A DNA stretch of 64,000 nt from an uncultured bacterium. Lineage in GTDB: Bacteria > Fidelibacterota > Marinisomatia > Marinisomatales > UBA2128. The notes beneath the pieces were generated by a model. The model saw nothing but the letters and a program-made list of their open reading frames with translations, did no database searches and was not told the DNA's origin. This document shows positions 2,550 to 37,700 of this stretch, piece by piece; within the stretch, counting starts at the first letter, position 1; each line of letters starts with the position of its first letter. The position numbers were made by a program, and so were the translations under genes. Where the stretch lies: contig CAZHRR010000002.1 of NCBI GenBank assembly GCA_964534955.1, forward strand, positions 11,069-75,068, in the 5' to 3' direction.

Positions 2550-2554
2550 TTCTT

Positions 2555-2881: not shown

Positions 2882-3053
2882 TAATTGGAATAAGTAGAAA
2901 ATGATAAAACTGATTATGGGAATGATTGGCATATAACTCTTATGAAAAAGTTGGGAATAGCCATCTTTTTTTCATTAAAGCATTGGATTCTGACAAAGCT
3001 ATTGAAAGGGATACAGATAACCAGCCATTCACAGAGTATTATCGAAGCTGAAA

Positions 3054-3109
3054 ACTTGAGGTGCCAAAACGGCACCTTAAATTGAAGGATGCAAATTGCG
3101 ACCTCAAGT
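3054..3109 (+). other. Nested inverted repeats upstream of the ORF6N gene
   Basis: The outer 9-bp pair is ACTTGAGGT (3054-3062) / ACCTCAAGT (3101-3109). The inner 7-bp pair is AGGTGCC (3059-3065) / GGCACCT (3071-3077). Confidence 0.5.
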
Positions 3110-3131
3110 CCTAAAAAAGGAGATTTTGTGA

Positions 3132-3658
3132 ATGGACAGTAAAATAAAAAATGAAATTTTGGCACCAGTTGAAAAGGTTGCCGATAAAATACTGTTGATT
3201 CGAGGACAAAAAGTAATGTTGGATAGGGATTTGGCAGGATTGTATGGTGTAGAAACGAAAATATTAAAAAGAGCCGTGAGAAGAAATCTGGAAAGGTTTC
3301 CGGCTGACTTCATGTTTGAGCTAAATAAAGAAGAACAATCTGCCTTAAGGTACCAATTTGTCTCCTTAAAAAAAGGTGAGCATACAAAGTATTTATCATT
3401 TGCTTTTAATGAGCAAGGTGTAGCTATGCTTTCTTCTGTAAAAGGGCAATTGAAGTCAATATTTTAATCATGAGAGCCTTTGTTCGCATGAAGGAACTTT
3501 TGTATTCAGATAAGAATCTGGCATTGAAAGTAGAAAAATTGGAAAGAGAAATGGAAAAACAGGGAAGATCATTACAGCAAGTTATTCGTATTGTAGATCA
3601 ATTATTGGAGCAGCCCAAACCGAAGCCAATGATAATAGGATTTAAAGTGGATGAATGA
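3132..3658 (+). pseudogene. ORF6N-domain DNA-binding protein gene, frameshifted
   Basis: The N-terminal ORF ([54 protein letters not shown]) stops at 3467. The conserved continuation [13 protein letters not shown] is readable only in another frame from ~3447 and runs on as ORF 3470-3658. A short indel that is not a multiple of 3 must lie between SSV and AIEVN. Confidence 0.75.
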
Positions 3659-3856
3659 CCAAGAAACAACCATAACTATTCCTGTGAAAATAAGATGGAA
3701 AAATAGTCGCAATGGAGGGTAATTAACTTCTCTATTGTCATCAATAAACTCAACACGAAAAGGACAACGAAAGAAGTTGGCTGAAAAAAATGATAAATCC
3801 GTCCCAATGGGACTCCTTACTTCGGAACAATCCGCATTCTTCAATCCGAAATCCTA

Positions 3857-6050: not shown

Positions 6051-6213
6051 GTCCTAAAATGAGACGAGAAAAAGTATTAATGAGAGAAATATTTAGTTCT
6101 ATGACCTCCCCTATTTCCCCTCCTTGGCAAGCCTGCCCGACGGTCAGGCGGGGAGGGGAAGAAAAGGGTGGTCCATGTTTTTCTTTTAGTATCGAACGAA
6201 AATATTTTTTAGT

Positions 6214-11275: not shown

Positions 11276-11342
11276 AGGAGCTTAGGAGCAGAGAAGATGA
11301 GGAGTAGGGGAGAAAGGGATAATTAGATGAAGAGCTACACCG

Positions 11343-11613
11343 CGAGCCCGTAAACGAGCACGCCTGCCTGTTCGTAGTGGAACGTAGACTGGCTAAAATC
11401 GAAGAAAGAACGCTGAAGCGTCCTGTCTGGGAGACAGCCCCATTTATGGGGGTTTATTTGATTATAACGTCGGTATTTTTACCCCGTGGAATGCGACAGA
11501 AGAACATATTCTACAGGGGTACACTGTCGCTTTGAAAGGTTTAAGCAGAAATTAACAGAAGATCATAATATGAAATTGTTACGACAAAATAACCATCACG
11601 AGCCCGTAAACGA
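11343..11613. repeat. Insert bounded by a perfect 15-bp direct repeat (CGAGCCCGTAAACGA)
   Basis: Copies lie at 11343-11357 and 11599-11613. The second copy abuts the nuoJ ATG. The 241-bp interior carries GCCTGCCTGTTCG and several hairpins. Confidence 0.7.
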
Positions 11614-18797: not shown

Positions 18798-18949
18798 GCT
18801 GGTGGAAAATTTGTTTGCATCTGAACAATTCTAACATAAAATTGGGACCGAAATGTCAATGATATTCTACACAGCAACCCTGAATAATAACAATAACGCC
18901 AATAATTTTGGCGTGGGGGAACCTGTGTAGAACCATAACACAACCATTA

Positions 18950-18987
18950 AAAAGCCCCCACTGGCGAAAGTCATGGGGGCTTTTTTT
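18950..18987 (+). terminator. Rho-independent terminator after the nuo operon
   Basis: The stem GCCCCCA (18954-18960) / TGGGGGC (18974-18980) is followed by T7 (18981-18987). Confidence 0.7.
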
Positions 18988-19019
18988 GTAGGTAAACATG
19001 AAGAGGAGACAAAAATAAA

Positions 19020-20609
19020 ATGTGCGGAATATTTGCCTATCTCGGAGGAAATCTGTCGTGGAAAGAGCTTAGAGATCATGCCTATAAAATCAAATACAGG
19101 GGGCCTGAAAACACTCACATAGCAGAACTTAATAATAACGCTATTTTTGCATTTCACAGGCTCGCTATCATGGGAGTTTCCGAAACAGGAGACCAGCCCA
19201 TGCAGCATCCTCAAGATCCATCATTGACACTGATTTGTAACGGTGAGATCTACAATTATTTGGAACTGGCTGATAAATTTGGCTTCATACTGGAGACAGG
19301 TTCTGATTGTGAGATCATTCTCTTTCTCTATAAAAAATTCGGAATTGAACAAACGGTGAGAGAGTTGGATGGTGTATTCATGTTTGTCCTCTATGATGAT
19401 ATTTCGAAAACCTTTTATGCTGGCCGCGATCCCATGGGTGTTCGCCCAGGGTTCATAGGTAATAAGGGAGAGGAATTATTTATTACCTCAGAAGCTAAGC
19501 CTATGGTTGGGGTTTGTGATTCAATACAACCTTTTCCTCCTGGATGCTGGTGGAGCTCCCAAGAGCGGGATTCTTTCCATCGTTATTTTCATTACAGTAA
19601 TGATGGAACTGCTATTGGAACAGAAGATGAAATTTGCGATCGTATTTGTGAGTTATTATCAAGTGCGGTAGAAAAACGAATGATGGCAGAACGGGAGATT
19701 AGCTGTCTTTTATCCGGTGGACTGGACTCCAGCCTGATTACAGCGCTGGTTGCTCGGCATAGTAATGGTAATACCCTTAAAACCTATTCTATTGGAATGC
19801 CCGGTAGCATTGATCTGGAATATGCCCAGAGGGCTGCAGATTATATTGGGACAATTCATCATCATATCGAGGTGACAGAGGAGGATTTCCTAGAGGCAAT
19901 TGAAACGGTGATTTACAATATTGAGTCCTACGATACAACAACTGTTCGAGCCAGTGTGGGGAACTATCTTGTCTCCAGGTTCATCCGTGAAAATTCCGAC
20001 TGTAAGGTGGTTTTCAACGGTGACGGCAGTGATGAGGTCTGTTGTGGGTATGTGTATCTGAAGAATGCCCCGTCGGCAGATGCATTGCAGCAGGAGAGTG
20101 AACGGCTGGTGAAGGAATTATATCTGTTTGACGTTCTTCGTTCTGATCGCAGTATCAGCTCCAACGGACTGGAGGCCCGCACGCCGTTCCTGGACAAAGC
20201 ATTCGTTAAATACTATCTCTCCATCCCTGCGAAATTGAAAATGTTCGACGGAGAAAAACGACTAGAGAAGCATCTCTTGCGTAAGGCCTTTGATAGGCAG
20301 GATTTACTTCCACATGATATACTCTGGCGGCGTAAATGTGCCTTTTCTGATGGGGTCAGCAGTGCAAGTAAATCGTGGCACAGGATAATCCAGAATTATG
20401 TGGACACTATTATTTCCGATGAGGAATTCATCAGGGAATCGGTAAAGATCAACCATTGTAGGCCTGTTCTGAAGGAGAGTTATTTTTACCGTAAAGTCTA
20501 TCAGCAGTTTTTCGGTGAGCATGATGAGCTTATTCCGCATTATTGGCTTCCGAAATGGACCGATACAGTTGATCCGTCTGCCCGGGAGCTGGCGGGTTAT
20601 AAGGAATAA
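19020..20609 (+). CDS. asnB: Asparagine synthase (glutamine-hydrolysing)
   Basis: N-terminal MCGI Ntn nucleophile, SGGLDSS PP-loop, 529 aa. Confidence 0.9.
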   Translation: MCGIFAYLGGNLSWKELRDHAYKIKYRGPENTHIAELNNNAIFAFHRLAIMGVSETGDQPMQHPQDPSLTLICNGEIYNYLELADKFGFILETGSDCEIILFLYKKFGIEQTVRELDGVFMFVLYDDISKTFYAGRDPMGVRPGFIGNKGEELFITSEAKPMVGVCDSIQPFPPGCWWSSQERDSFHRYFHYSNDGTAIGTEDEICDRICELLSSAVEKRMMAEREISCLLSGGLDSSLITALVARHSNGNTLKTYSIGMPGSIDLEYAQRAADYIGTIHHHIEVTEEDFLEAIETVIYNIESYDTTTVRASVGNYLVSRFIRENSDCKVVFNGDGSDEVCCGYVYLKNAPSADALQQESERLVKELYLFDVLRSDRSISSNGLEARTPFLDKAFVKYYLSIPAKLKMFDGEKRLEKHLLRKAFDRQDLLPHDILWRRKCAFSDGVSSASKSWHRIIQNYVDTIISDEEFIRESVKINHCRPVLKESYFYRKVYQQFFGEHDELIPHYWLPKWTDTVDPSARELAGYKE

Positions 20610-20710
20610 ATTGCCCTACTCGATATTATTAGAGGATAAAACTGTATTCACCTTTATTGTACCTTCACTTTTCCATGGCACATAATCTCCCATCTGACTA
20701 AACTTAGCGC

Positions 20711-21253
20711 ATGCGAATTACGAAGGTATATACAAAGACTGGCGACGATGGTACCACCTCTCTGGCTAACGGAGAGCGCTTGCCGAAAGACCATCCCCGG
20801 ATGGCTGTTCTCGGTTCCCTGGATGAGACCAATTCTGCTCTTGGAGTGGTTTTGGCAGAGGGAATTTGTGCAGAAATCGAATCTACTCTGCATAAAGTAC
20901 AGCATACCCTTTTTAACATAGGCGCCGAGTTGGCCACTCCTGACAGAAAGCTGGGGTTGGTCTCAGAAGACGATGTAATGTTTCTGGAGTCCGCTATTGA
21001 TGAGTTGAATGAGTCCCTGCCACCGCTGGAGGAGTTCATCCTTCCTGGTGGTTCGAAAGCAGCAGATCTTTTGAATCATGCCCGGACCGTTTGCCGGCGG
21101 GCGGAGCGGGATCTGGTTACCCTCAATAGGACAGAAAATGTGTCTGAACTTCATCTGAAACTCATTAACCGACTCTCTGATTTTCTTTTCGTCGCGACTC
21201 GCTTCCAGAATCAGAAGGACGGCGGCGAAGAAAAACAGTGGAAGAATTCTTAA
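20711..21253 (+). CDS. PduO-type ATP:cob(I)alamin adenosyltransferase
   Basis: N-terminal KVYTKTGDDGTTSL motif and the typical ~180-aa helical-bundle length. Confidence 0.85.
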   Translation: MRITKVYTKTGDDGTTSLANGERLPKDHPRMAVLGSLDETNSALGVVLAEGICAEIESTLHKVQHTLFNIGAELATPDRKLGLVSEDDVMFLESAIDELNESLPPLEEFILPGGSKAADLLNHARTVCRRAERDLVTLNRTENVSELHLKLINRLSDFLFVATRFQNQKDGGEEKQWKNS

Positions 21254-21509
21254 TGCGGAATGCACCTTGCCTGCCACTATCGTGACGGTCAGGCAGGGAT
21301 TTCGAATTTCCCTCCAGAGACCCTTTGGATCACAGGGTGCTGTTAGCAGGACGCTGTGCGCTCACGAAACCCATTAACCAACCTGTCCTTCGTAATACAA
21401 TGTAGAAGGACCACCGCTCCACCAGTTATTTATCCATCGTAATGACGGCAGGAATGTAGATGGACCGTTCTTCTGCTCACCAATCTACCAATAAACACTC
21501 ACCAAATTA

Positions 21510-22343
21510 ATGACTCCCAAATCTTACTTCGGACCCTTCCCTGCACCTCAGCAGCACGGTGCATGGGCTATGTTCCTGATACCAGCAGCAATGGCGGCCT
21601 GGGTTGTGGGGGAGTGGCGATGGTCATCCCTGTTCCTCATACTCTCTTTCATACTCATATTCCTGTCGCACCGGCCGGCAGTCCGCTTCATGCGACGGAA
21701 GAAGTTCCGCCAAGTCATAGAGTGGCAGAGTCTGAACTGGGCGCTGCTTTTAGCGGGATCGGGTGCCACTATCGCCGGTTATCTCTTTCTTTCTGCCCAT
21801 CAATGGAGCGCAATGATCCTTGGCGGGATTGCGGCTGTGACTATGCTGTTTCATCTGCGGCTGACGCTCAACCGAGAGCATATGTCAGTTCCGGGGGAGA
21901 TCATAGGTGTGGCCGGACTGACAGCATCAGCTCCCGTGCTCTATCTCTTTCAGCATGGCTCTCTGGATGCTCAGGGATGGGTGCTATGGATGGTGAATTT
22001 TCTCTACTTCACAGGTTCCATATTCTACATCAAACTGAAGGTTCGCCATCAACCCAGGTATGAAGAGCCCGATGTCGTTGGTAAGTTGCAGGCAGGTCTT
22101 CCGGCCCTGACTTATTCCATCCTTGTAGTAATATACCTGCTGGTGATTACCGCCATTCGCGGCTATTCTTGGTATTTCCTTATGGCTTATTTACCATCGG
22201 TAGCGAAAGTATTGACTGGAATTTTCCGGTGGCAGTCGAAGGCAAAACTGAAGGTATCTCGATATGGATTTGTGGAACTTGCCCATGCTATCATCTTTGG
22301 AATTTTCACAATTCTAGGGTTTGAAAATACAATACGTAGATGA
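21510..22343 (+). CDS. YwiC-like membrane protein
   Basis: 277 aa with ~8 TM segments. The N-terminal P..QHGAWAMFLIP motif is as I remember for the YwiC-like family. Confidence 0.5.
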   Translation: MTPKSYFGPFPAPQQHGAWAMFLIPAAMAAWVVGEWRWSSLFLILSFILIFLSHRPAVRFMRRKKFRQVIEWQSLNWALLLAGSGATIAGYLFLSAHQWSAMILGGIAAVTMLFHLRLTLNREHMSVPGEIIGVAGLTASAPVLYLFQHGSLDAQGWVLWMVNFLYFTGSIFYIKLKVRHQPRYEEPDVVGKLQAGLPALTYSILVVIYLLVITAIRGYSWYFLMAYLPSVAKVLTGIFRWQSKAKLKVSRYGFVELAHAIIFGIFTILGFENTIRR

Positions 22344-22347
22344 ATTG

Positions 22348-22824
22348 CACGAAAACCTTGGAACTTTGTATGAAAAACCTGACAGGTGGACTTGCTCCTG
22401 TCAGATTGAAAGAACTTCTTTCGCCATTTTCTTTGGCGCAAAGAAAACGGCTGCTCCAAAGGAGCTCCTACGGAGCAAAAGAAACAGCCGCCCGCCTGTC
22501 CGCCCGTCCAAGCCGTTCGGACGGGAATGACGTAGTCGGGCAGGCTGTGAGAAAATTCAACGGTTTTTCGACATCTTTCGGGAATAAATTAAACTCACCT
22601 CCTATCGTCGGTTCAGACAGTAATTTATTCTGATCCTCAAGATACCATAAACCTAGTGTCGAATTTTCTCAAGGCGGCGAAATACAAAAAACAATATATC
22701 AAAACCGTCTACCCGTCCGTAATGAATTTATCACTCATCTATCTGTCGTAGCGACAGCGCAGACAGATAGTGTGCTTGATAATCGTAGAGTAAAAGAAGA
22801 TTACACGAAAACCTTGGAACTTTG
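22348..22824. repeat. Insert bounded by a perfect 21-bp direct repeat (CACGAAAACCTTGGAACTTTG)
   Basis: Copies lie at 22348-22368 and 22804-22824. Looser similarity extends leftward (AATACGTAGATGA vs AATCGTAGAGTAA). The interior is packed with hairpins and GC-rich motifs. Confidence 0.7.
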
Positions 22825-22855
22825 GCGATTCCGGGCGTAAGATGGATTAATTAAA

Positions 22856-23203
22856 ATGAAACAGGTACTGACACTTACTATTCTAATTTGCACCGCAGCT
22901 GTGAATGTTTTTCCATTCATTCCTGCCGTGGAGTGTGACATGCCGTGCTGCCAGCCGGTAATTTCCTGCTGCGATATGGACGAGAAAGAATCTCCTGTTT
23001 CCATGACTCAGTGCGAGACAGTAGTGTTCGTACCGATGATTGCGGCACCACTTTCTAAACATCAACTGCTGAAAGAACTGCCTCTGGATGGGACGCCTGT
23101 GGTGCACCGGGTACCTGTCGCTGCAGCGGTGTATGGGAATTACCCAGCGCAAGAACCAGAGGCAGAACCACCTCCCTCCTTCCTCTTCCCACTTATAATT
23201 TAG
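22856..23203 (+). CDS. Secreted Cys-rich protein, first gene of the cus-like operon
   Basis: Signal peptide followed by VECDMPCCQPVISCCDMDE. Assigned from position and strand context only; I recognise no family. Confidence 0.45.
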   Translation: MKQVLTLTILICTAAVNVFPFIPAVECDMPCCQPVISCCDMDEKESPVSMTQCETVVFVPMIAAPLSKHQLLKELPLDGTPVVHRVPVAAAVYGNYPAQEPEAEPPPSFLFPLII

Positions 23204-23311: not shown

Positions 23312-24562
23312 ATGAAATCACTCTCGAAATCGCTATTAGTAGTCATAATTAGTACTTCAGCTGTATTACCCCAGCAAATGGGGAATCAGATTAAGGTATT
23401 GTTCGAAAACAACCGCGAAATTCGGGCGGCCGAAGAAACCTACAAGTCTGCCCTCGAAGCCATTAAGGCAGCGGGTGTGCTCCCTGATCCTATGATTGAT
23501 GGATCACTGTTCTTAGAAAAAATCGAAACAAAGAACGGTCCTATGGAAGCTCAAATGATGCTGGGACAGAAGTTCCCCCTGTGGGGTAAACTGAATCGAA
23601 AGAGAAAAATAGCAGTGCTGAAGGCTGACATAGCAGGATACAACCTGAATGATATAAAGGTAACAACCGCATTTAAAATGAGGAAAGCGTGGGCAACATA
23701 CTTGAAGCTTATTAACTCCCTGAGAATCCTGAACGAATACAGTACGGAACTTGAATCCTTCCGTTCTGTTGCTCTGACCCAGTATGCTACAGGCACAGGT
23801 GTTACACAACATCCTATTTTGAAACTGCAGATTGAGTCTTCTCTTGTTGAGAGTCAGATCAATGATCTGGAAAGTGAGCTTGAATCTGCTGTGAACGAAC
23901 TTAAAGCCCTTTTTGACGGGGAGTTTTCACCGAGCCTTTTTCCGGAATCCTGGGAAGTGGTTGTACCGGATCGACCCTCAGAGGAATGGTCAAGGATCAC
24001 CAAGAGTGCAAATCCTATCTACCTTAAAGTGCTGATGGAGAGGGAAATAGCTGTCTTGCAGAATGAGCTTACCGTTCGGCAGAACTACCCTGACCTTTTG
24101 GTCGGTCTTACCTATACAGCTATCGGTAGCGCTGAGATGTCATCAGCTAATACAGGAAAGGACGCATTTGGGTTTAGAGTAGGTCTCAATCTTCCCCTGT
24201 GGTTTAACCGTAACAAAGCCAGGGTTCGGTCCACAGAGTTAATGGTAAAAGCGAGAGATGAGGCAATTGAGGCAACTTGGAATAGGGTTGAAGACGACAT
24301 CCTCTCCACAAAGAAGGAACTTGAAGAAATTGAACAGACCTACCAACTTTACGATTCTAAGTTAATTCGGGAATCTGAACAGATGTTGTCATCCGCCTTT
24401 GCTGCCTACGAAACGGGAAAGATCAGTTTTCTTGATGTGCTTGACAGTGAACGTATGGCCGTTAGGGTCAAGCTCGGTTTTGAGAAAACCAAGGCGAAGA
24501 GTACTATTGTAAGCGCTGCCCTGCTGCGGGCAGCAGGTTTGATTCAGATAGATAAGGAGTAG
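23312..24562 (+). CDS. TolC/CusC-family outer-membrane efflux protein
   Basis: 416 aa with a signal peptide and two-repeat coiled-coil/beta architecture. It lies immediately upstream of the adaptor and RND genes. Confidence 0.8.
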   Translation: MKSLSKSLLVVIISTSAVLPQQMGNQIKVLFENNREIRAAEETYKSALEAIKAAGVLPDPMIDGSLFLEKIETKNGPMEAQMMLGQKFPLWGKLNRKRKIAVLKADIAGYNLNDIKVTTAFKMRKAWATYLKLINSLRILNEYSTELESFRSVALTQYATGTGVTQHPILKLQIESSLVESQINDLESELESAVNELKALFDGEFSPSLFPESWEVVVPDRPSEEWSRITKSANPIYLKVLMEREIAVLQNELTVRQNYPDLLVGLTYTAIGSAEMSSANTGKDAFGFRVGLNLPLWFNRNKARVRSTELMVKARDEAIEATWNRVEDDILSTKKELEEIEQTYQLYDSKLIRESEQMLSSAFAAYETGKISFLDVLDSERMAVRVKLGFEKTKAKSTIVSAALLRAAGLIQIDKE

Positions 24563-24566
24563 AAAA

Positions 24567-26387
24567 ATGAGGTTTATGAAACTATTCATATTCAGAACTG
24601 TTCCCGTGATTGCTCTCGGTGTGATTCTCCTGACAGGGTGCAGTCAGGACAAGGAAACAGAGGCTGGATTACAGGTTCAAGAGGAAGAGAGACAGCTGTA
24701 CAGTTGTGGTATGCACCCGAATGTCATACAGGAAGGTCCGGGGAACTGTCCCATATGCGGGATGAAGCTTACGCCTCTTGGCGGCAGTCCCTCAGCGGTC
24801 ACGACATCGGCTTCGGCAGCTGATGAGCAGGGAGAAAGGAGGATTCTATACTGGCGAGCCCCAATGGATCCGACTTACATTTCACCCAAACCCGGTAAGT
24901 CTCCAATGGGAATGGATCTGATTCCTGTCTTCGAGGGAGAGGAAGCATTTGGTGCCACTGTAAAGATCAACCCGACTGTCCAGCAAAATATGGGGATAAG
25001 GGCGGCAACTGTAGAAAGGAGAGACCTTCAGCAGAAGATCCGGACAGTTGGTCATCTTGATTATGATGAATCAACAGTCGGCCATGTTCACACGAAATTC
25101 TCCGGCTGGATTGAAAAAACACATGTGAATATAACAGGCCAAACTGTTAGGAAAGGCCAGTCTCTTCTGGATATCTACAGTCCTCAATTGGTCTCTGCCC
25201 AGGAAGAGTATCTTGATGCTTTAAAGAACCTTGTGGGTACATCTGATTCCTTCTCAGGAAAGACCAACAAGAATGTGAGAAGCATTCTTTCCTCAACAAA
25301 AAGGCGATTGGAGTACTTCGACATATCAGATGAGCAGATCCAGAGCCTGGGGAATACGGGGCAGGTAAAGAAGACGATGTCACTGATATCACCTTTTGAC
25401 GGAGTTGTCGTGGAAAAACATGCTCTAGACGGTATGGAAGTGAAACCGGCAATGATGCTTTACACCATTGCTGACCTGTCGGAGATATGGGTGTATGCCG
25501 ATATCTATGAATATGAGACCCCATGGGTCAGGGTTGGTCAAGAAGCCAGAATGACACTTTCTTATGACCCGGGGAAGGAGTACACGGGCAAAGTCCAATA
25601 CGTTTATCCATACCTTGAGGAAAAATCACGAACGATCAAGGTCAGGTTGGCCTTCCCTAACCCAAACTTGGATCTCAAACCCGGGATGTACGCTAATGTA
25701 GAAATCAAGACGTCTCCTCTTCAGGATGTGGTATCCGTGCCTATGGAGGCTGTGCTCTTTACAGGCGAGCGACATCTTGTGTTCGTAGAACTGGAGGAAG
25801 GGCGTTTTGCCCCCAGAGATGTTACGATCGGAATTGAGAGTGGAGACGGATACTATCATGTGAAAGACGGTCTGTCCGAAGGAGAATCTGTTGTTACGTC
25901 AGGTCAGTTCCTGCTTGATTCGGAAAGCAGGCTCCAGGAAAGTATTGCGAAAATGCTTCAAATAAAAGGGTCAGAAGCAGAACAACTAAGTATAGAGGAA
26001 AAACAAAATGAGGAAACCCCTACTGAAGAACACCAGCATAGTCATGAACTGGAAGAGATGAAAGAACACGAAACCGAGGAAACAGATAATCATGAAAAGG
26101 AACATAAAATGATGAAGACTAAGAAAACGGAAGCTTCACTGTCCTTTGGGAATCTGGAAGAAAGCATGCTTGCCTATTATACCTGCCCGATGGAATCTCA
26201 TTCCTACGTACGAATGAGCGAACCGGGCAAGTGTCCGGACTGCGGAATGCAGTTGGTGCAGAAGAGAGAGCACTTTGATCAGGACGAGACTTTCTACACT
26301 TGTCCCATGCCGGCACACAGCTATGTCATAGAAGAAGTGCCCGGAGACTGCCCTGTCTGCGGAATGGAACTGGTCGAAGCCAAATGA
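24567..26387 (+). CDS. cusB: CusB-like RND periplasmic adaptor with three HMBD modules
   Basis: Lipoprotein signal (LLTGC). One N-terminal HMBD (YSCGMHPNVIQEGPGNCPICGMKL), an MFP core, a His/Glu-rich linker, and two C-terminal HMBDs (YYTCPMESHSYVRMSEPGKCPDCGMQL, FYTCPMPAHSYVIEEVPGDCPVCGMEL). Confidence 0.85.
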   Translation: MRFMKLFIFRTVPVIALGVILLTGCSQDKETEAGLQVQEEERQLYSCGMHPNVIQEGPGNCPICGMKLTPLGGSPSAVTTSASAADEQGERRILYWRAPMDPTYISPKPGKSPMGMDLIPVFEGEEAFGATVKINPTVQQNMGIRAATVERRDLQQKIRTVGHLDYDESTVGHVHTKFSGWIEKTHVNITGQTVRKGQSLLDIYSPQLVSAQEEYLDALKNLVGTSDSFSGKTNKNVRSILSSTKRRLEYFDISDEQIQSLGNTGQVKKTMSLISPFDGVVVEKHALDGMEVKPAMMLYTIADLSEIWVYADIYEYETPWVRVGQEARMTLSYDPGKEYTGKVQYVYPYLEEKSRTIKVRLAFPNPNLDLKPGMYANVEIKTSPLQDVVSVPMEAVLFTGERHLVFVELEEGRFAPRDVTIGIESGDGYYHVKDGLSEGESVVTSGQFLLDSESRLQESIAKMLQIKGSEAEQLSIEEKQNEETPTEEHQHSHELEEMKEHETEETDNHEKEHKMMKTKKTEASLSFGNLEESMLAYYTCPMESHSYVRMSEPGKCPDCGMQLVQKREHFDQDETFYTCPMPAHSYVIEEVPGDCPVCGMELVEAK

Positions 26388-26482
26388 CAATGCGACTGCT
26401 ATCCTACGATTCTAGCGAAGAGGTTAGCAGCAATTAGGACAGGAAACATTAGAGAAAAGAATATTTGCAGCAGGAGTGTCTG

Positions 26483-29400
26483 ATGATTGAGAAAATAATA
26501 GAATGGTCCATAAACAATCGATTTATAGTTATTCTAGCCGTAGTATTTGTGATTCTTGGCGGTTTTATGGCCATGACTACTACCCCTCTGGATGCCATTC
26601 CAGATTTGAGTGATGTACAGGTTATCATCCTTACCAAGTATCCAGGGCAGGCGCCTCAGGTAGTGGAAGACCAGGTGACGTATCCTCTCACTACCGCCAT
26701 GCTCTCAGTCCCATATGCCAAAGTAGTTCGAGGTTATTCATTTTTTGGCTTGTCTTTTGTATACATCATTTTCGAGGACGGTACGGATATGTATTGGGCT
26801 CGAAGCCGGGTGTTGGAGTATCTCAATTTCGTCTCCGGCCGGCTGCCTCAAGGAGTCACACCGCAACTAGGTCCTGACGCCACCGGGGTCGGCTGGGTCT
26901 ATGAGTACACTGTGGAGAGCGACCAGCATGACCTGCAGCAATTACGTTCTATTCAGGATTGGTATTTAAGGTATCAATTGATGAGTGTGCCTGGAGTATC
27001 AGAAGTTGCGAGCATCGGTGGTTATGTCAAACAGTACCAGGTAGAAGTGGATCCCAACAAGCTATTGGCATATAACCTTTCCTTAAACAAAGTCAAAATG
27101 GCTATCAAACGAAGCAACAATGATGTGGGTGGAAAGCTGATTGAGATGGCTGAAACGGAATTTATGGTGAGAGGACTTGGCTATATCAAATCTATAGATG
27201 ACCTGAAAAAAGTCCCACTTGGCGTTGACAAGAATGGCACTCCAATTCTGTTAAGAAGCGTTGCCAACATCCATCTGGGACCTGAGTTACGCCGAGGTCT
27301 TGCTGAGCGCGATGGTCTCGGTGAAGTTGTGGGTGGTGTGATCGTGATGCGTTATGGTGAGAATGCACTGGAAGTCATAAAAAATGTTCGGGAAAAAATT
27401 GATGATCTGAAGACAGGTTTGCCGGAAGGGGTTAAAATCTTATCTGCTTATGACCGTTCTCTTCTTATTGAGCGGGCAATTGATAACCTGAAAGAAAAAC
27501 TTCTTGAGGAAAGTGTTGTTGTAGCGTTGGTCTGCATCATTTTTCTTCTTCACTTTCGCAGCGCATTTGTGGCGATCTTTACTTTACCTGTTGGAATACT
27601 GATGTCTTTTCTCGTTATGCGGTATCAGGGAATTAATGCCAACATTATGTCTTTAGGGGGCATAGCTATTGCAATTGGGGCTATGGTGGATGCGGCAATC
27701 GTCATGATAGAGAATGCTCATAAACATATTGAACGTCGCAGGGGAGAAGAAGATCATTGGCAATTGATTCTTGATGCATCAAAAGAAGTGGGGCCTGCAC
27801 TGTTTTATTCTTTGCTGATTATCACTTTTTCATTCCTTCCTGTCTTTTCGCTGCAAGCTCAAGAAGGCCGCCTTTTCAGTCCATTGGCATTTACAAAAAC
27901 TTATGCTATGGGTGCATCAGCTCTATTGGCTATCACTATTGTTCCCGTTTTAATGGGTTACCTTATCAAGGGAAAGATACTTCCCGAACAGAGAAACCCC
28001 ATCAATCGTTTTCTTATATATGTTTACCGACCAATGATCCGGTTTGTTCTTCGGTTCAGGAAAACCACTTTATCGATGGCGTTATTAGCCCTTGTGGTTA
28101 CCATCATTCCGCTAAAAAATATTGGGTCTGAGTTTATGCCTCCCTTAAACGAAGGCGACCTGCTGTATATGCCCACAACTGATCCGGGTATTTCCATCAC
28201 GAAGGCAAGGGAACTTCTGCAGCAAACGGATAAGATCATCAAGACTTTTCCAGAGGTGGAACGTGTATTCGGGAAAATTGGACGGGCTGAGACAGCCACG
28301 GATCCTGCTCCTCTGAGCATGATCGAAACCACCATCACTCTGAAACAGATTGACAAGTGGCCAAAACGCAAGACGGCATCACGCTGGTATTCTGGTTGGA
28401 TGCCTGACTGGCTGGCAGCCCCATTCAGATGGATATGGCCAGAGCAGCGCCCTGTGACTATGGAGGAACTGGTGAATGAACTGAACGCTGCCATCCAGTT
28501 CCCGGGTCTGACCAACGCATGGACTATGCCTATAAAGACAAGAATTGATATGTTGAGTACAGGCATTAAAACACCTGTGGGTATAAAATTAATGGGCTCT
28601 AATCTTGATACCTTAAATGTTCTGGGAGCAAGGGTTCAGGCGATTGTTCAAAAATTGCCGGGAACATTGAGCGCCTTTGCTGACAAAGTTACGGGTGGAA
28701 ATTTTCTTGATTTCGAAATCAACAGGGAAGAGGCTGCCCGGTACGGTCTTACTATCGGCGATGTGCAGGATATTATTCAATCGGCAGTGGGAGGTATGAA
28801 TATCAGTTATACTGTTGAAGGTCTTGAAAGATACCCTATTAATCTTCGCTATAGCAGGGAACTGCGGGACAGTATCAGCAAGCTGAAGAGGGTTATTATT
28901 CCCACTCCTACAGGAGCGCAGATTCCCATCAGCCAGGTGGCAGATATATTTGTTCGAAAAGGCGCACCGGTTATCAAAAGCGAAAATGCCAGAAATACAG
29001 GATGGATCTATGTCGACATTACCGGGATTGATGTAGGAACCTACGTCAAAAGAGCTCAAAAAGTGTTAAAAGAGGAATTAAAGTTGCCCGAAGGATATTC
29101 AATCGTCTGGAGTGGTCAATACGAGTATATGGAGCGTGCTGCGAAAAGACTCAGGATAGTAGTGCCAGTTACTTTGGTGATCATCTTCTTATTGTTATTC
29201 TTCAATTTCAAGAACGTAACGGAAAGTGTGATTGTAATGTTGTCCCTCCCCTTTTCTCTTGTTGGCGGATTGTGGTTCATGTATTTGTTGGGCTATAATA
29301 TGAGTGTGGCGGTTGGTGTGGGATTTATTGCACTGGCTGGAGTGGCTGCTGAAACAGGTGTAGTTATGCTAATTTATTTAGATCACGCTTTCGCGGCGAG

Positions 29401-29689
29401 AAAAAATCGAGGAACGATGAACACGCTGAAGGATCTTTATGATGCAGTTATGGAAGGGGCAGTAGACAGGGTGAGACCCAAGATGATGACAGTGACGGCA
29501 ATAATGGCAGGACTTTTGCCTATCCTCTGGGGACATGGTACCGGTTCTCAAGTGATGAAACGTATCGCAGCGCCAATGGTGGGAGGGATGGTGACATCTA
29601 CGCTCCTTACCTTGCTGGTCATCCCTACCATCTATTTCCTGTGGAAATCTGTGGAGGTAAAAAAGCGATTAGAAGGAGGAGAAGAATGA
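26483..29689 (+). CDS. cusA: CusA/CzcA-family heavy-metal efflux RND pump
   Basis: About 1068 aa from the ATG at 26483 (MIEKIIEWSINNRF, typical HME-RND N-terminus), with a 12-TM RND architecture. The RBS caggag lies upstream. Confidence 0.95.
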   Translation: MIEKIIEWSINNRFIVILAVVFVILGGFMAMTTTPLDAIPDLSDVQVIILTKYPGQAPQVVEDQVTYPLTTAMLSVPYAKVVRGYSFFGLSFVYIIFEDGTDMYWARSRVLEYLNFVSGRLPQGVTPQLGPDATGVGWVYEYTVESDQHDLQQLRSIQDWYLRYQLMSVPGVSEVASIGGYVKQYQVEVDPNKLLAYNLSLNKVKMAIKRSNNDVGGKLIEMAETEFMVRGLGYIKSIDDLKKVPLGVDKNGTPILLRSVANIHLGPELRRGLAERDGLGEVVGGVIVMRYGENALEVIKNVREKIDDLKTGLPEGVKILSAYDRSLLIERAIDNLKEKLLEESVVVALVCIIFLLHFRSAFVAIFTLPVGILMSFLVMRYQGINANIMSLGGIAIAIGAMVDAAIVMIENAHKHIERRRGEEDHWQLILDASKEVGPALFYSLLIITFSFLPVFSLQAQEGRLFSPLAFTKTYAMGASALLAITIVPVLMGYLIKGKILPEQRNPINRFLIYVYRPMIRFVLRFRKTTLSMALLALVVTIIPLKNIGSEFMPPLNEGDLLYMPTTDPGISITKARELLQQTDKIIKTFPEVERVFGKIGRAETATDPAPLSMIETTITLKQIDKWPKRKTASRWYSGWMPDWLAAPFRWIWPEQRPVTMEELVNELNAAIQFPGLTNAWTMPIKTRIDMLSTGIKTPVGIKLMGSNLDTLNVLGARVQAIVQKLPGTLSAFADKVTGGNFLDFEINREEAARYGLTIGDVQDIIQSAVGGMNISYTVEGLERYPINLRYSRELRDSISKLKRVIIPTPTGAQIPISQVADIFVRKGAPVIKSENARNTGWIYVDITGIDVGTYVKRAQKVLKEELKLPEGYSIVWSGQYEYMERAAKRLRIVVPVTLVIIFLLLFFNFKNVTESVIVMLSLPFSLVGGLWFMYLLGYNMSVAVGVGFIALAGVAAETGVVMLIYLDHAFAARKNRGTMNTLKDLYDAVMEGAVDRVRPKMMTVTAIMAGLLPILWGHGTGSQVMKRIAAPMVGGMVTSTLLTLLVIPTIYFLWKSVEVKKRLEGGEE

Positions 29690-35074: not shown

Positions 35075-37321
35075 ATGAAGAGGATAGACAATAAGAGGTC
35101 ACACAGGTTCTTCTACAGGACAGTTCACCCGTTTGCTCCCCGGTCATTTCAGATCATCACTGTCTTGTCTCTTATTGTAAGCCTCGGATTTGGACAGGAG
35201 GGCTTCCCATCAGGATCTATCGTGGGCACTGTTAATAGCAGCGAAGGCCCATTGACTGGAGTGCAAGTCTGGCTGGAAGGCACCGAGGAGGGTGATATCA
35301 CCGATTCACTGGGAATGTATCGGTTGGAGGTTCTATCTCCCGGAGACTATCAAATTGTCTTCCGACATATCGGATACAAAGAGGTAACAAGAAAAATCAT
35401 AGTAGTAGAAGCGAGGGAAGAGCAGATTATTAATATCGAGTTGAACCAAGTAGCGGTTGAAATGGATGCGATCTTAGTGACGCCCAAAGAGGAGGGGTTC
35501 GACCCTTCTGGTATCACGGCTCGATTGACAACCCGTATGATTCAGGAAGCTCCAGGGGCCGCGCAGGACATCTTTCTGGTGCTGCAGACGCTTCCCGGGG
35601 TCTCTTCGGGTGGGGACGATTCGAAGCTATTTGTAAGAGGCGGGAGGCCTGAAGAGAACCTCATAGTCTACGATGGCGCCACAATTCCAAACCCGTTCCA
35701 TTTTGATTTTATCGGTGGCGGGTTTTACTCAATTTTCAATTCTGCTCTTGTTGAGAATGTAGAGTTCTATTCAGGATGGTTTCCTGCTCGATACGGAGAT
35801 CGTCTTTCGTCAGTAATGATAATCGAGAACCGGGAGGCAAATCGTGAAAGAACAAGAGCCGAGATTTCCTTGAGCATGTCTGATTTGTCTGGAATGGTCG
35901 AAGCGCCCATTTCAAGCACAGCTGCTACTATCCTGAGCGTTCGCCGCAGCTATTTTGATCTTCTTCTCAATGAATCAGGATTTGGTGGTAAATACGATCT
36001 CCTGCCCTTTTTCTATGATGTGAATTCCCGGACTGATGTTTTTCTCGCGGATAGACATCGACTGTCAATAAATCTTCTATACTCGCGTGAAGAGATGTCT
36101 GGCGAGTTTGACGAGCCTCACTGGGAAGGAATGCATAACTGGTCAAGTGAAAGCTGGACTGCGGCGATGAGACTGCGATCACTTTTTTCAGAGAACTTTG
36201 CATCTGATCTAAACATCTATTGGAGCGAAGGAAGCAACAGAGCCAGCCACGCTGATGACATAGGTACTGAGAATACCAGGAAAGGGGAGGTGGCGATTAA
36301 AGAGGATATCGCTATTCGTAGAGGTGTTCACGAGTTTCATCTCGGTATGTGGCTGGTGCAGGATCGAGGTGAAATGAGAATCAACTTGCCTTTGGATCTG
36401 GCCTACAATTTTGAGCCGCTTGCCTTTGAATCAAACGGCAATACCACTAAACTTGCACTCTATACGGACGATACATGGAGAGTTAACGACAAGATTTCAT
36501 TGAACCTGGGCGTTAGGGGAGACCATATTATTATCAGTTCAGAAACCACCCTGTCACCTAGGCTGAATCTGGTTGTCACTCCGACAGAGACTGTCCAGCT
36601 TTCAGCCAACTATGGTTTGTATACACAGAGCCCTCCAGCATATGAACTAAAGAAAAACATCCAGCTTCGATCAAGGCAATCGCGTGCATGGGGAATAGGT
36701 ATTTCTGGGACTTTCTCATCAGGCGATTTCTGGAGTCTTGAAGGCTATCGGAAACAGCTTTCCAACTTGATGACAATCGATTCCGTGGGGAACTTCGCCA
36801 GTGAAGGAGAAGGTAGTGCAACCGGTTATGAACTTTACGTTCAGAGAAAGAGCGGAGATAGTTTCATCGGCTGGGGCTCCGTGACCTACTCTATTGCCAA
36901 AAGAAAGGAGCAGACGGCCGAGGAGGTGACACTATTTGACTATGATCAAACCTATATGGTTACAGCTGTAGGACAGTATCGCCCGTCAAAGAAGTGGAAA
37001 CTGAGTCTGCGGTTCCGCTACGCAACCGGAAGACCCTACACTCCCGCAGAAGGGAGCTGGTACAACACTGAAGCTCAAAGATTTTTTCCAGTTGTTGGAG
37101 AAAGAAACTCTTCACGATATCCCCCCTATCATCGGCTTGACATCCGTGTGGCACGATACTTTCCGCAGATACTCGGGGGACTAACTGTCTATTTGGAGAC
37201 AATCAATACGTATGATCGGGACAACGTTGCCTACTATGTCTGGAGTGAGGATTTCTCCAGCAAGAGGAACTTCACTGTGTTTCCTTTCATTCCCGTGATA
37301 GGCATAGATTTGATGTTATAG
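35075..37321 (+). CDS. TonB-dependent receptor with an N-terminal CarboxypepD_reg-like domain
   Basis: GSIVGTVNS..GVQVWLEG...GMYRLEVLSPGDYQIVFRHIGY, then a plug and a long beta-barrel. I chose the ATG at 35075 so the gene does not overlap the previous one. Confidence 0.75.
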   Translation: MKRIDNKRSHRFFYRTVHPFAPRSFQIITVLSLIVSLGFGQEGFPSGSIVGTVNSSEGPLTGVQVWLEGTEEGDITDSLGMYRLEVLSPGDYQIVFRHIGYKEVTRKIIVVEAREEQIINIELNQVAVEMDAILVTPKEEGFDPSGITARLTTRMIQEAPGAAQDIFLVLQTLPGVSSGGDDSKLFVRGGRPEENLIVYDGATIPNPFHFDFIGGGFYSIFNSALVENVEFYSGWFPARYGDRLSSVMIIENREANRERTRAEISLSMSDLSGMVEAPISSTAATILSVRRSYFDLLLNESGFGGKYDLLPFFYDVNSRTDVFLADRHRLSINLLYSREEMSGEFDEPHWEGMHNWSSESWTAAMRLRSLFSENFASDLNIYWSEGSNRASHADDIGTENTRKGEVAIKEDIAIRRGVHEFHLGMWLVQDRGEMRINLPLDLAYNFEPLAFESNGNTTKLALYTDDTWRVNDKISLNLGVRGDHIIISSETTLSPRLNLVVTPTETVQLSANYGLYTQSPPAYELKKNIQLRSRQSRAWGIGISGTFSSGDFWSLEGYRKQLSNLMTIDSVGNFASEGEGSATGYELYVQRKSGDSFIGWGSVTYSIAKRKEQTAEEVTLFDYDQTYMVTAVGQYRPSKKWKLSLRFRYATGRPYTPAEGSWYNTEAQRFFPVVGERNSSRYPPYHRLDIRVARYFPQILGGLTVYLETINTYDRDNVAYYVWSEDFSSKRNFTVFPFIPVIGIDLML

Positions 37322-37626
37322 AAGGCTTTGAAAAACCTACTGCACAAATTAAAAAAGAGTAAAATTCGCCTGTCCACAGGGCACACACAGTGTCCTCCGT
37401 ACAGCCTCCTTCGTAGATCCTGCGGACTTTTCGTTGGAAAACTCGTCCATAGCGTTGCTATTGACTGCATTTTCCCGCCTGAATGGCCCGTCCGAACGGC
37501 AGGGCCGGGCGGGCATTGTCGGGCAGGCCGTCTTAATCAGACCTGTCTGCGTTCCACTCCGAACAGGCAGGCAAATTTTTCTTCTTTTTTCTTCACACAT
37601 AAGATTTTGCAAAGCCTTCTTATAGA
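37316..37626. mobile_element. MITE-like element bounded by inverted repeats
   Basis: AGAAGGCTTTG (37320-37330) pairs perfectly with CAAAGCCTTCT (37610-37620), and flanking TTAT/TATA bases pair partially. The interior carries CCCGTCCGAACGGC, GTCGGGCAGGC and CGAACAGGCAGGC. The left end overlaps the receptor stop codon. Confidence 0.4.
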
Positions 37627-37700
37627 AATGGAAATACATATTTGAATCGGTAGTCACAATGTCATGAACGAATCAAACTAACGAACAGTAGGAGCTAATC

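What the first reader, a model, noticed from the sequence alone, without database searches (positions are those of the whole stretch)
22331..22824. Hairpin-dense 435-bp insert bounded by 21-bp perfect direct repeats that duplicate a gene's 3' end
CACGAAAACCTTGGAACTTTG occurs at 22348-22368 and 22804-22824. Similarity extends leftward into the last codons of the YwiC-like gene (AATACGTAGATGA versus AATCGTAGAGTAA), so the right copy looks like a relic of that gene end plus its downstream flank.

The interior has no credible ORF but many strong hairpins:

- CTGACAGG/CCTGTCAG
- TTTTCTTTG-GCG-CAAAGAAAA
- CCCGTCC..GGACGGG

It also carries the REP-like motifs. Its left end (CTTTGTATGAAAAACCTGAC) resembles the left end of the MITE-like element at 37326 (CTTTGAAAAACCTAC).

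Taken with the nuoB and nuoJ cases, there is a recurring pattern of inserts that duplicate 15-50 bp of gene-boundary sequence.
Basis: partly seen in the sequence, partly recalled or inferred. Interest (0 to 1): 0.55.

Follow-up and report, generated by a model that had tools for sequence, protein, structure and literature searches.

The report
Hairpin-rich insert duplicating a promoter box
A 456-base stretch of gene-less, hairpin-rich DNA was inserted between two genes of an uncultured marine bacterium (Marinimicrobia), copying a 21-25-base conserved promoter-like box in the process; it is a real, lineage-specific insertion of unknown source, but there is no evidence that it belongs to a mobile-element family.

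Summary
CACGAAAACCTTGGAACTTTG occurs exactly twice (22348-22368 and 22804-22824; 24/25 identical from 22344/22800). Both junctions appear in independent assemblies, and the 435-nt interior folds far better than shuffles (z -6.0 and -7.5).

The interpretation needs correcting.

- **What the repeat is.** It is not the end of the YwiC gene. It is a box conserved upstream of the next gene, a 115-aa Cys-rich ORF that heads a cus-like efflux operon. The box contains a -35-like TTGGAA placed 18 nt before a conserved TAAGAT.
- **Empty site.** One distant relative has it directly: stop codon, box, ORF, 52-bp spacer. The closest relative has the box once.
- **Event.** This is a true insertion that duplicated the box and left an intact box-plus-TAAGAT unit on the right.
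- **Interior.** It has no terminal inverted repeats, no credible gene, no Rfam, phage or plasmid match, and no second copy in anything I could search. It shares only a ~50-nt GC-rich REP-like hairpin with the 37-kb element.

My best guess is recombination at the box, att-like, leaving a remnant or miniature integrated element. Transposition looks less likely. The mechanism is not shown. Interest is modest.

The parts
21510..22343 (+). YwiC-like membrane protein gene. Its stop codon is 22341-22343, and its last ~27 nt plus the left repeat form the ancestral 'gene end + box' block.
   Evidence: Pfam PF14256, E = 8.8e-18. Positions 22318-22367 align at 86% to L004 11026-11075, the relic gene end plus single box of the relative.
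22344..22368 (+). Left copy of the direct repeat (ATTG + CACGAAAACCTTGGAACTTTG). It is followed by foreign DNA and no -10-like hexamer, so it probably does not act as a promoter.
   Evidence: No TAAGAT-like hexamer lies 16-18 nt downstream (read from the sequence).
22369..22799 (.). Inserted interior: gene-less, hairpin-dense, and with no copy found elsewhere.
   Evidence: Absent from L003, L021-L025 and L026. No match in Rfam, phages or plasmids, viral contigs, protein space, or six-frame comparison with the window and all loci.
22376..22407 (-). 11-bp-stem hairpin. On the - strand it is followed by UUUUUCAUA (22375-22367), making it terminator-like for leftward transcription at the extreme left end of the insert.
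   Evidence: -14.8 kcal/mol, z = -4.2. The terminator scan does not list it because its loop is 10 nt.
22408..22477 (.). Three abutting hairpins: 22408-22422, 22423-22451 (13-bp stem), and 22452-22477 (with the inner GGAGCTCC palindrome).
   Evidence: I9, I4.
22486..22547 (+). GC-rich REP-like hairpin module (GCCTG..CCCGTCC..GTCGGGCAGGC).
   Evidence: Second copy at 37470-37530 and a homologue in a Bacteroidota MAG (L008, 89% to the 37-kb copy). Consensus hairpin.
22548..22671 (.). Long-range stem (14 nt, 93% complementary) enclosing a 10-bp perfect AT-rich hairpin at 22582-22630.
   Evidence: I5, I16.
22739..22770 (.). 9-bp perfect hairpin CTATCTGTC / GACAGATAG.
   Evidence: z = -3.1.
22775..22799 (+). 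Right-end segment of the insert with weak, non-significant resemblance to the YwiC gene end.
   Evidence: p = 0.10; p = 0.077 / 0.013.
22800..22824 (+). Right copy of the direct repeat (ATTA + 21-mer), in its ancestral context. It contains the -35-like TTGGAA at 22814-22819.
   Evidence: Conserved in every lineage that has the 115-aa ORF and was aligned.
22825..22855 (+). Conserved downstream flank with the -10-like TAAGAT (22838-22843), 18 nt after TTGGAA and 12 nt before the ATG.
   Evidence: Alignment A8. The same TTGGAA-18-TAAAAT is the only promoter-like site reported in the L026 scan.
22856..23203 (+). 115-aa ORF with a hydrophobic N-terminus that looks like a signal peptide, rich in Cys (CDMPCC...SCC). 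It is the first gene of a cus-like RND efflux cluster (OEP 23312-24562, CusB-like 24567-26387, ACR_tran 26465-29689).

Best explanation
**Shown.** The ancestral YwiC-orf115 spacer was about 52-56 bp: YwiC stop, then a conserved box (GAAAACCTTGGAACTTTG), then about 31 nt, then the ATG of a 115-aa ORF heading a cus-like efflux operon. In the window's lineage 456 bp were added: 435 nt of new DNA plus a second copy of the 21-25-nt box. As a result, the YwiC end still abuts a box, and an intact box-plus-flank unit still sits in front of the ORF.

**Inferred.**
1. The box is the -35 region of the ORF's promoter (TTGGAA, 18 nt, TAAGAT). The insertion would be tolerated because the duplication rebuilt a complete promoter on the right. 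The left copy would be an orphan -35.
2. The DNA entered by recombination within the box itself. The box would act as an att-like core, or as the only island of identity available for a Campbell-type crossover with a small circular or foreign molecule carrying the same box. What remains would be a gene-less remnant or miniature of an integrated element, not a transposon.
3. Its present effect is probably neutral or insulating. It moves the YwiC stop 456 nt away from the promoter and places many stable hairpins between the two genes, including a leftward terminator-like hairpin at its left edge.
For: **Insertion and empty site.**
- L026/L027 have stop-box-ORF with a 52-bp spacer.
- L003 and L021-L025 have the box once, contiguous on the left with a relic YwiC end that matches the window's left copy (86% over 51 nt, p = 0.0002). 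On the right it is contiguous with the same flank as the window's right copy (95%).

**The box is a conserved element of the downstream gene.**
- It is present with fixed 18-nt spacing to TAAGAT/TAAAAT in five lineages, including those without YwiC.
- The promoter scan picks exactly this site in L026.

**Recombination rather than transposition.**
- No inverted ends were found.
- A 21-25-nt repeat is longer than the 2-14 bp I recall as usual for IS and MITE target duplications.
- The extent of the repeat coincides with the extent of the cross-lineage conserved box.
- The right edge is sharp while the left edge is fuzzy, as expected if the incoming DNA carried a diverged copy of the target.
- The locus is demonstrably a recombination junction. 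Third-codon-position identity to the relative is 0.66-0.78 in asnB-cobO-ywiC against 0.87-0.94 in most flanking genes (0.82-0.86 in cusB, ccmF and cusA). High identity resumes exactly at 22801.
- Four other lineages show independent rearrangements ending just upstream of the box.

**Real sequence, not an artefact.** Both junctions are present in independent assemblies.
Against: - No integrase or transposase lies in the 64-kb window among the 26 proteins scanned. The genome outside the window could not be searched.
- No other genome shows an element integrated at the box. Of the lineages examined, one is empty and the others are rearranged upstream of the box.
- No second copy or relative of the interior was found anywhere, so mobility rests on a single event.
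- The resemblance of the insert's right end to the gene end, which would support an element-borne copy of the target, is not significant (p = 0.08-0.10).
- The promoter assignment rests on an 8/12 consensus match in the window (9/12 in L026) plus conservation. Promoter rules for this phylum are not established.
- The middle 139 nt of the insert (22447-22585) are not confirmed by a second assembly.
Confidence: 0.4

Rival explanations
1. A non-autonomous transposable element (MITE-like). A transposase acting in trans made staggered cuts about 21-25 nt apart, and repair duplicated the target.
For: - Clean insertion with a near-perfect flanking duplication, with the empty site seen in relatives.
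- Size (435 nt) and lack of genes fit a MITE.
- A genuine MITE-like element exists in the same window, with 53-nt inverted ends and an 8-bp duplication. It shares one hairpin module and a short end motif with this insert.
- From memory, a few IS groups (the IS1634 group of IS4; IS1182) make unusually long duplications.
Against: - No terminal inverted repeats.
- No second copy in the window, in 36 fetched loci, or in protein space.
- No similarity to the 37-kb element outside the module.
- The repeat boundaries coincide with a conserved functional box, which a staggered cut would not predict.
- No transposase among the window proteins scanned.
Confidence: 0.15
2. Replacement import by homology-facilitated illegitimate recombination. 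A foreign segment carrying YwiC, its own box and its downstream flank (the interior) replaced the native YwiC. This left the last ~30 nt of the native gene plus the native box as the right copy.
For: - A patch of high synonymous divergence (asnB-cobO-ywiC) ends exactly at the right copy.
- The closest relative and a more distant lineage both show this architecture: a new gene end, an insert, a relic gene end and then the box.
- There is weak resemblance of 22775-22803 to a YwiC end.
Against: - If 22775-22803 were the native relic, it should match the relative's relic at roughly flank-level identity (~90%). It does not (p = 0.65).
- It is the window's left gene end that matches that relic (p = 0.0002). 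This makes the left block native, and the divergence patch is better explained by an import in the relative.
Confidence: 0.12
3. Templated insertion by replication template switching or break repair. A stalled 3' end copied about 435 nt from elsewhere and re-primed about 25 nt upstream of where it left, duplicating the box.
For: - It explains an insertion with an arbitrary-length flanking duplication, no inverted ends and no recombinase.
- The interior contains a module also present in other spacers.
- Other spacers in this genome have been remodelled by blocks of hairpins.
Against: - No source copy was found in the 64 kb available.
- The shared module is only about 70-86% similar, so it is not a fresh copy.
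- The coincidence of the repeat limits with the conserved box is unexplained.
Confidence: 0.12
4. The interior is primarily a functional RNA gene or regulatory leader, for example a ~265-nt - strand sRNA running from a promoter-like site at 22672-22644 to the terminator-like hairpin at 22407-22376. The repeats would be incidental.
For: - Very strong predicted structure, stronger on the - strand (z = -7.5).
- A - strand promoter-like site (9/12).
- A - strand hairpin followed by a U run.
Against: - No Rfam family matches.
- No homologue anywhere, so covariation cannot be tested.
- It is absent from the closest relatives, which keep the same flanking genes.
- Palindromic DNA folds well on both strands whatever its function.
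Confidence: 0.08
5. Assembly artefact: a chimeric join inside the insert, at the repeated hairpin module, in a metagenome-assembled genome.
For: - The independent contigs stop at 22386 and 22446 and start at 22586. This brackets the REP-like module and leaves 139 nt unconfirmed.
Against: - Both repeat junctions are confirmed independently in two samples.
- The joined genes are neighbours in every related lineage that has both, so a chimera would have to recreate the true synteny by accident.
Confidence: 0.03

Closest known systems
Gene-poor att-flanked integrated elements (cis-mobilizable elements, CIMEs) and decayed integrative elements. The term is used in PMC5704250 and PMC6323972. Direct repeats of a target's end around islands are described for Dehalococcoides ssrA islands in PMC3146451. 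I saw only the titles and abstracts listed; the details are from memory.
   Same: - An insert bounded by direct repeats that are a duplicated native sequence present once in empty sites.
- A repeat length (21-25 nt) in the range of att identity blocks.
- No recombinase of its own.
- A sharp edge on one side of the repeat and a fuzzy edge on the other.
   Different: - At 435 nt it is far smaller than described CIMEs and contains no gene at all.
- The target is a promoter box between genes, not a tRNA, tmRNA or gene 3' end.
- No cognate integrase, no sister element at the same site, and no excised form is known.
MITEs (miniature inverted-repeat transposable elements), including the element at 37316-37627 of this window.
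   Same: - Size, lack of coding capacity, intergenic position next to a stop codon, strong secondary structure, and a flanking duplication.
   Different: - No terminal inverted repeats.
- The duplication is 21-25 nt instead of 2-10.
- Single copy as far as could be searched.
- The interior is unrelated to the local MITE apart from one ~50-nt module.
REP/BIME-type intergenic palindromic repeats (from memory: short GC-rich imperfect palindromes clustered after genes, mobilised by RAYT transposases).
   Same: - The module at 22486-22547 is a GC-rich imperfect hairpin repeated in other spacers and in another FCB-group genome.
- The insert is a mosaic of abutting hairpins after a gene end.
   Different: - Only one of about eight hairpins is a repeated module.
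- No RAYT gene was seen.
- As far as I recall, REP insertion does not create 21-nt duplications.
Homology-facilitated illegitimate recombination and sequential displacement that leaves gene-end relics (PMC3240628; PMC5361080, Vibrio T6SS effector arrays). I saw only the listings.
   Same: - The locus shows a divergent imported patch ending at the spacer.
- In sister lineages, relic YwiC ends are left next to the conserved box.
   Different: - For the window's own insert, the relic test fails. The left block looks native and the event looks like a simple insertion.

Membership tests
MITE | Terminal inverted repeats | tested here: not met
   No inverted repeat pairs the two ends of 22369-22803 or of the unit including the repeats. 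The local MITE-like element has 53-nt inverted ends, for contrast.
MITE | Short target-site duplication (2-10 bp) typical of the parent IS family | tested here: not met
   The duplication is 21 nt perfect and 24/25 overall.
MITE | Multiple dispersed copies in the genome | tested here: inconclusive
   No second copy in the 64-kb window or in 36 loci, and no similar spurious ORF among 5.8 billion proteins. The rest of the source genome was not available, because the genome-collection scan showed it is not the species representative held.
MITE | Small (<~800 bp) and without a transposase | tested here: met
   435 nt. Its only ORFs of 40 aa or more have no Pfam hit or homologue.
att-flanked integrated element / CIME | Flanking direct repeats are a duplicated native sequence, present once at the empty site | tested here: met
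   Single box in L003, L021-L025, L026, L028 and L032-L035. The uninterrupted site is seen in L026.
att-flanked integrated element / CIME | A cognate site-specific recombinase in the genome or on a related full-length element | not testable with these tools
   None among the 26 window proteins scanned.
att-flanked integrated element / CIME | Related elements occupy the same site in other genomes | tested here: not met
   The other lineages examined are empty (L026) or rearranged upstream of the box with unrelated DNA (L003-type, P0004-type, P0042/43-type). None has an insert at the box.
att-flanked integrated element / CIME | The element carries its own diverged copy of the target next to the core | tested here: inconclusive
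   Leftward similarity beyond the repeat gives p = 0.10 (free alignment), and p = 0.077 / 0.013 when anchored.
REP/BIME | Short GC-rich imperfect palindrome repeated in many intergenic regions | tested here: inconclusive
   One module (22486-22547) has a second copy at 37470-37530 and one homologue in another genome. The 11-nt core occurs 3 times exactly and 5 times with up to 1 mismatch, against 0.68 expected. The rest of the insert is not repeated.
REP/BIME | Associated RAYT (IS200/IS605-like) transposase | not testable with these tools
   None among the window proteins scanned. The genome was not available.
Any curated RNA family (Rfam 15) | Covariance-model match at or near the gathering score | tested here: not met
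   0 matches at gathering score over the whole window. The best hits at E <= 10 are chance miRNA/snoRNA hairpins at 14-18 bits against cut-offs of 45-88.
Sigma-70-type promoter (for the repeat box) | -35 and -10 hexamers at 16-18 nt, conserved among relatives, upstream of the gene | tested here: inconclusive
   TTGGAA, 18 nt, TAAGAT matches 8/12 in the window and 9/12 in L026, where the scan lists it as the only site. Hexamers and spacing are conserved in five lineages. There are no transcript data, and the promoter consensus of the phylum is unknown.

The most novel reading that the evidence does not exclude
The conserved box in front of the efflux operon is a dedicated attachment site for small gene-less cassettes. 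The 435-nt insert would be such a cassette, carrying a new ~265-nt structured RNA on the - strand (promoter-like site 22672-22644, terminator-like hairpin 22407-22376). That would make it a mobile non-coding RNA gene delivered by site-specific recombination into a promoter.
Probability: 0.07. Interest if true: 0.6.

Novelty: new variant of a known kind. Interest (0 to 1): 0.3.

Why it matters
This matters mainly as a corrective. A striking 21-nt perfect repeat around a hairpin-rich block looks like a transposon footprint. Comparison with relatives shows instead that the repeat is a conserved regulatory box, and that the spacer is a recurrent recombination junction in these streamlined marine genomes.

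If the att-like reading is right, it would be an unusually small (435 nt), gene-less integrated unit. It would also be an example of an insertion surviving because the duplication rebuilt the promoter it hit.

Two by-products may be useful:
- a candidate promoter motif for an uncultured phylum (TTGGAA, 18 nt, TAAGAT, about 12 nt before the start codon);
- a REP-like hairpin module shared between two FCB-group genomes.

Tried and rejected
**Searches that found nothing**
- Rfam, at gathering score over the window and at E <= 10 over the locus; tRNA/tmRNA.
- BLASTN of the interior against phage and plasmid collections.
- Exact-pattern scans of viral contigs for the 13-bp hairpin and for the box.
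- Metagenome scan for the repeat 20-mer: 0 hits, and the collection evidently lacks these lineages.
- Protein search with the 97-aa interior ORF as a proxy for DNA homologues: only itself.
- Six-frame comparison of the interior with the window and all loci, looking for a decayed gene: nothing.

**Hypotheses tested and rejected**
- *Interior is a decayed tandem copy of the YwiC 3' half, or of the flank plus orf115.* No similarity (p = 0.56).
- *The interior's first bases (ATGAAAAACCTGACA) are a relic of the orf115 start.* Not significant (p = 0.13-0.24).
- *The interior is a diverged copy of the 37-kb MITE-like element.* Not significant between or after the shared motifs.
- *A second box-like sequence follows YwiC in the P0004 lineage, which would have meant a three-gene cassette flanked by boxes.* Not significant (p = 0.09-0.27).
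- *The box is a shared operator of other metal genes in the window.* No further copies.
- *Bacteroidetes-type promoter motif (TTTG...TAnnTTTG).* The scan was uninformative.

**Scans and look-ups that missed their aim**
It gave one true homologue and three chance hits in GC-rich genes, and showed that the source genome is not in that collection.
- Two look-ups (P0001, P0039) returned no record, so the source assembly could not be named.
- The P0003 contig ends 17 nt after YwiC and was uninformative.
Full report
**1. The observation**

The 21-mer CACGAAAACCTTGGAACTTTG is present at 22348-22368 and 22804-22824 and nowhere else in the window. This holds even with three mismatches allowed, and none is expected by chance. 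In register the repeat is 24/25 identical from 22344 and 22800, with spacing 456.

The left copy starts one base after the stop codon of a YwiC-family gene (21510-22343; Pfam PF14256). The right copy ends 31 nt before the ATG of a 115-aa ORF (22856-23203). That ORF heads a cus-like efflux cluster of OEP, a CusB-like protein and an RND pump.

The interior (22369-22803) has:
- no ORF with a Pfam match or a homologue;
- no tRNA;
- no Rfam match.

The whole spacer folds with z = -6.0 on the + strand and -7.5 on the - strand. That places it among the three or four most structured spacers of the window.

Independent Logan assemblies from two runs reproduce both junctions base for base. Positions 22447-22585 are covered only by the window's own assembly.

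**2. Organism and relatives**

YwiC homologues place the window in Marinimicrobia/Fidelibacterota. Only one close relative lineage exists in the databases. It is represented by L003/L004 (a JGI contig) and L021-L025 (Logan), with YwiC 86-87% identical at the protein level. More distant lineages with the same neighbourhood were obtained through YwiC and through the 115-aa ORF.

**3. What the repeat is**

In every lineage where the region upstream of the 115-aa ORF was aligned, the box GAAA(A/T)(C/T)CTTGGA(A/G)CTTT(G/A) lies upstream of it. Exactly 18 nt after its TTGGAA comes G(C/T)GTAA(G/A)AT, and the ATG follows 12-13 nt later (alignment A8).

This holds even in lineages that have lost YwiC altogether, where cobO is the upstream neighbour. 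The more distant P0004 lineage has only a diverged version of this region.

The box therefore belongs to the 5' control region of the downstream gene, not to the YwiC 3' end. TTGGAA, 18 nt, TAAGAT is a weak sigma-70-type match: 8/12 in the window and 9/12 in L026, where the scan lists it as the only promoter-like site. I read the box as the -35 region of that promoter. This is an inference from conservation and geometry, with no transcript data behind it.

**4. Empty site and direction of the event**

L026/L027 show the uninterrupted arrangement. It reads YwiC stop TGA, AT, GAAAACCTTGGAACTTTG, 32 nt, ATG, giving a spacer of 52 bp.

The close relative has the box once.
- To its right, the flank and ORF match the window's right copy at 93-95%.
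- To its left lies a relic of a YwiC gene end. It matches the window's left block (22318-22367) at 86% over 51 nt, p = 0.0002 for the gene-end part alone.

Both window junctions, gene end plus box and box plus flank, are therefore ancestral. The window differs from the ancestral block by a clean 456-bp addition: the interior plus one extra box.

In the relative a different, unrelated ~200-bp block sits inside the last codons of YwiC. It gives that gene a new C-terminus and carries an intrinsic terminator.

**5. The locus is a recombination junction**

| Genes | Third-codon-position identity, window vs relative |
|---|---|
| nuo genes | 0.88-0.94 |
| asnB | 0.78 |
| cobO | 0.72 |
| ywiC | 0.66 |
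| 115-aa ORF | 0.89 |
| OEP | 0.87 |
| cusB, cusA, PII, ccmF | 0.82-0.91 |

(Values.) High nucleotide identity resumes exactly at 22801.

Other lineages have also been rearranged here:
- The P0004 lineage has three extra genes between YwiC and the ORF, with a relic gene end kept next to the box region.
- The P0042/P0043 lineages deleted YwiC but kept about 15 nt of its end plus the box.

Rearrangements thus end repeatedly just upstream of the box. The simplest reason is survivorship: events that remove the box would silence the efflux operon.

**6. Which model fits the window's insert**

*In-situ target duplication.* This predicts that any similarity beyond the repeat is as young as the repeat. 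The repeat is 24/25 identical. The flank to its left is at best a much-diverged resemblance: p = 0.10 free, and p = 0.077 / 0.013 anchored. The flank to the right shows none.

*Replacement import leaving a native relic on the right.* This predicts that 22775-22803 matches the relative's relic. It does not (p = 0.65). The window's left gene end does match it. So the left block is native, and the divergence patch is better assigned to an import in the relative.

*Transposition.* Four points weigh against it:
- there are no inverted ends;
- the duplication is long;
- no second copy was found in anything searchable;
- the repeat limits coincide with the limits of the conserved box.

*Recombination within the box.* That last coincidence is what recombination within the only island of identity would give. 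The recombination could be by an integrase using the box as core, or by homologous Campbell-type integration of a small circle carrying the box. I therefore favour an att-like origin and regard the 435 nt as a remnant or miniature of an integrated unit.

The evidence against this is real:
- no recombinase in the window;
- no sister element at the box in the other lineages examined;
- no excised form is known.

My confidence in the anatomy (an insertion, a duplicated box, an empty site) is high, about 0.85. For the promoter reading it is about 0.55, and for the att-like mechanism about 0.35-0.4.

**7. The REP-like motifs and the link to 37326**

One module (22486-22547; GCCTG..CCCGTCC..GTCGGGCAGGC) recurs at 37470-37530. 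It has an 89% homologue upstream of an RNase E/G gene in a Bacteroidota MAG (L008). It folds as a long imperfect GC-rich hairpin. Its 11-nt core occurs three times exactly in the window (five times with up to one mismatch, against 0.68 expected).

The element at 37316-37627 is a genuine MITE-like unit with 53-nt inverted ends and an 8-bp duplication that includes the upstream gene's stop codon. Outside the module and a short end motif (the pattern was derived post hoc), it is not similar to the present insert.

The nuoI-nuoJ case is different again. The left repeat copy opens a window-specific ~115-nt hairpin block that replaces a ~30-nt hairpin of the relative. About 150 nt between the two copies are shared with the relative, so that repeat is not a target duplication.

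The recurring pattern is therefore heterogeneous. It is better described as frequent remodelling of spacers by hairpin-bearing blocks.

**8. Likely consequence**

The right box, with its flank, keeps the putative promoter intact. The left box lacks a -10 partner.

The insert puts about eight stable hairpins between YwiC and the operon. At its left edge it carries an 11-bp-stem hairpin followed on the - strand by a U run, and a - strand promoter-like site lies 260 nt to its right.

A - strand transcript or an insulating role is possible, but neither can be tested without homologues or expression data.

**9. Verdict**

This is a real, lineage-specific insertion with a duplicated regulatory box. 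It is not a demonstrated mobile-element family member, nor a relic of a gene end, nor a known RNA. Interest is modest.

Noticed in passing
window 37316-37627: MITE-like element between a TonB-dependent receptor gene and a copper P-type ATPase gene. It has 53-nt terminal inverted repeats (74% complementary) and an 8-bp direct repeat, TTATAGAA, whose left copy contains the receptor gene's TAG stop. It carries the REP-like module and ends in a terminator-like hairpin plus T run.
   Followed up: partly
window 22486-22547 and 37470-37530; L008 3734-3790: A ~55-nt GC-rich hairpin module (GCCTG..CCCGTCC..GTCGGGCAGGC) is shared between two spacers of this genome and a 54%-GC Bacteroidota MAG, at 89% identity to the 37-kb copy. 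That is unusually high for such different genomes. The 11-nt core is also at 6131-6141 on the - strand.
   Followed up: partly
window 19020-22800 versus L004 7635-11052: asnB, cobO and ywiC form a patch of much higher synonymous divergence (third-position identity 0.66-0.78) than most genes on either side (0.87-0.94; 0.82-0.86 in cusB, ccmF and cusA). This indicates a homologous-recombination import in one of the two lineages.
   Followed up: partly
L003 6826-7025 (also L021, L022-L025): In the sister lineage an unrelated ~200-bp block is inserted inside the last codons of ywiC. It gives the gene a new C-terminus (VSTTS) and carries a + strand intrinsic terminator. The old gene end survives as a relic next to the box.
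   Followed up: yes
L028, L032-L035 (about 80 nt upstream of the 115-aa ORF): Lineages that lack ywiC entirely still keep about 15 nt resembling its 3' end (TTTGAGGAATGCATG) plus the box, directly after cobO. This suggests ywiC was deleted with a breakpoint just upstream of the box.
   Followed up: partly
window 11276-11613: In the nuoI-nuoJ spacer, the 20 nt that abut the nuoJ ATG (11594-11613) are copied at 11338-11357 (15/15 perfect core). The copy sits at the start of a window-specific ~115-nt hairpin block that replaces a ~30-nt hairpin of the relative. The origin of the copy is unexplained.
   Followed up: partly
window 2550-3856: nuoA and the next nuo gene are separated by about 1.3 kb of AT-rich DNA carrying an ORF6N-domain ORF (3132-3467, E = 1.5e-31) that appears truncated or frameshifted. 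It looks like an insertion into the nuo operon.
   Followed up: no
window 18798-19019: The nuoN-asnB spacer is the most strongly structured spacer in the window (z = -6.7 with mononucleotide shuffles) and has no Rfam match at gathering score.
   Followed up: no
window 22856-23203 and homologues P0040-P0043: The 115-aa ORF has no Pfam family but is conserved across Marinimicrobia. It has invariant ECDM.CC, SCC, QCE and C-terminal PEAE.PPSFLFPL motifs, and always precedes metal-handling genes. It is a candidate periplasmic metal-binding partner of the cus-like system.
   Followed up: no
window 24567-26387 versus L004 12822-14640: The CusB-like gene is a single 606-aa ORF in the window. In the relative it is split into 512-aa and 92-aa (HMBD) ORFs.
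   Followed up: no
window 20650-20660: This 11-nt insertion (ACCTTTATTGT), next to the similar ACCTTCAC, is the only other indel of 9 nt or more in about 19.5 kb aligned with the relative.
   Followed up: no
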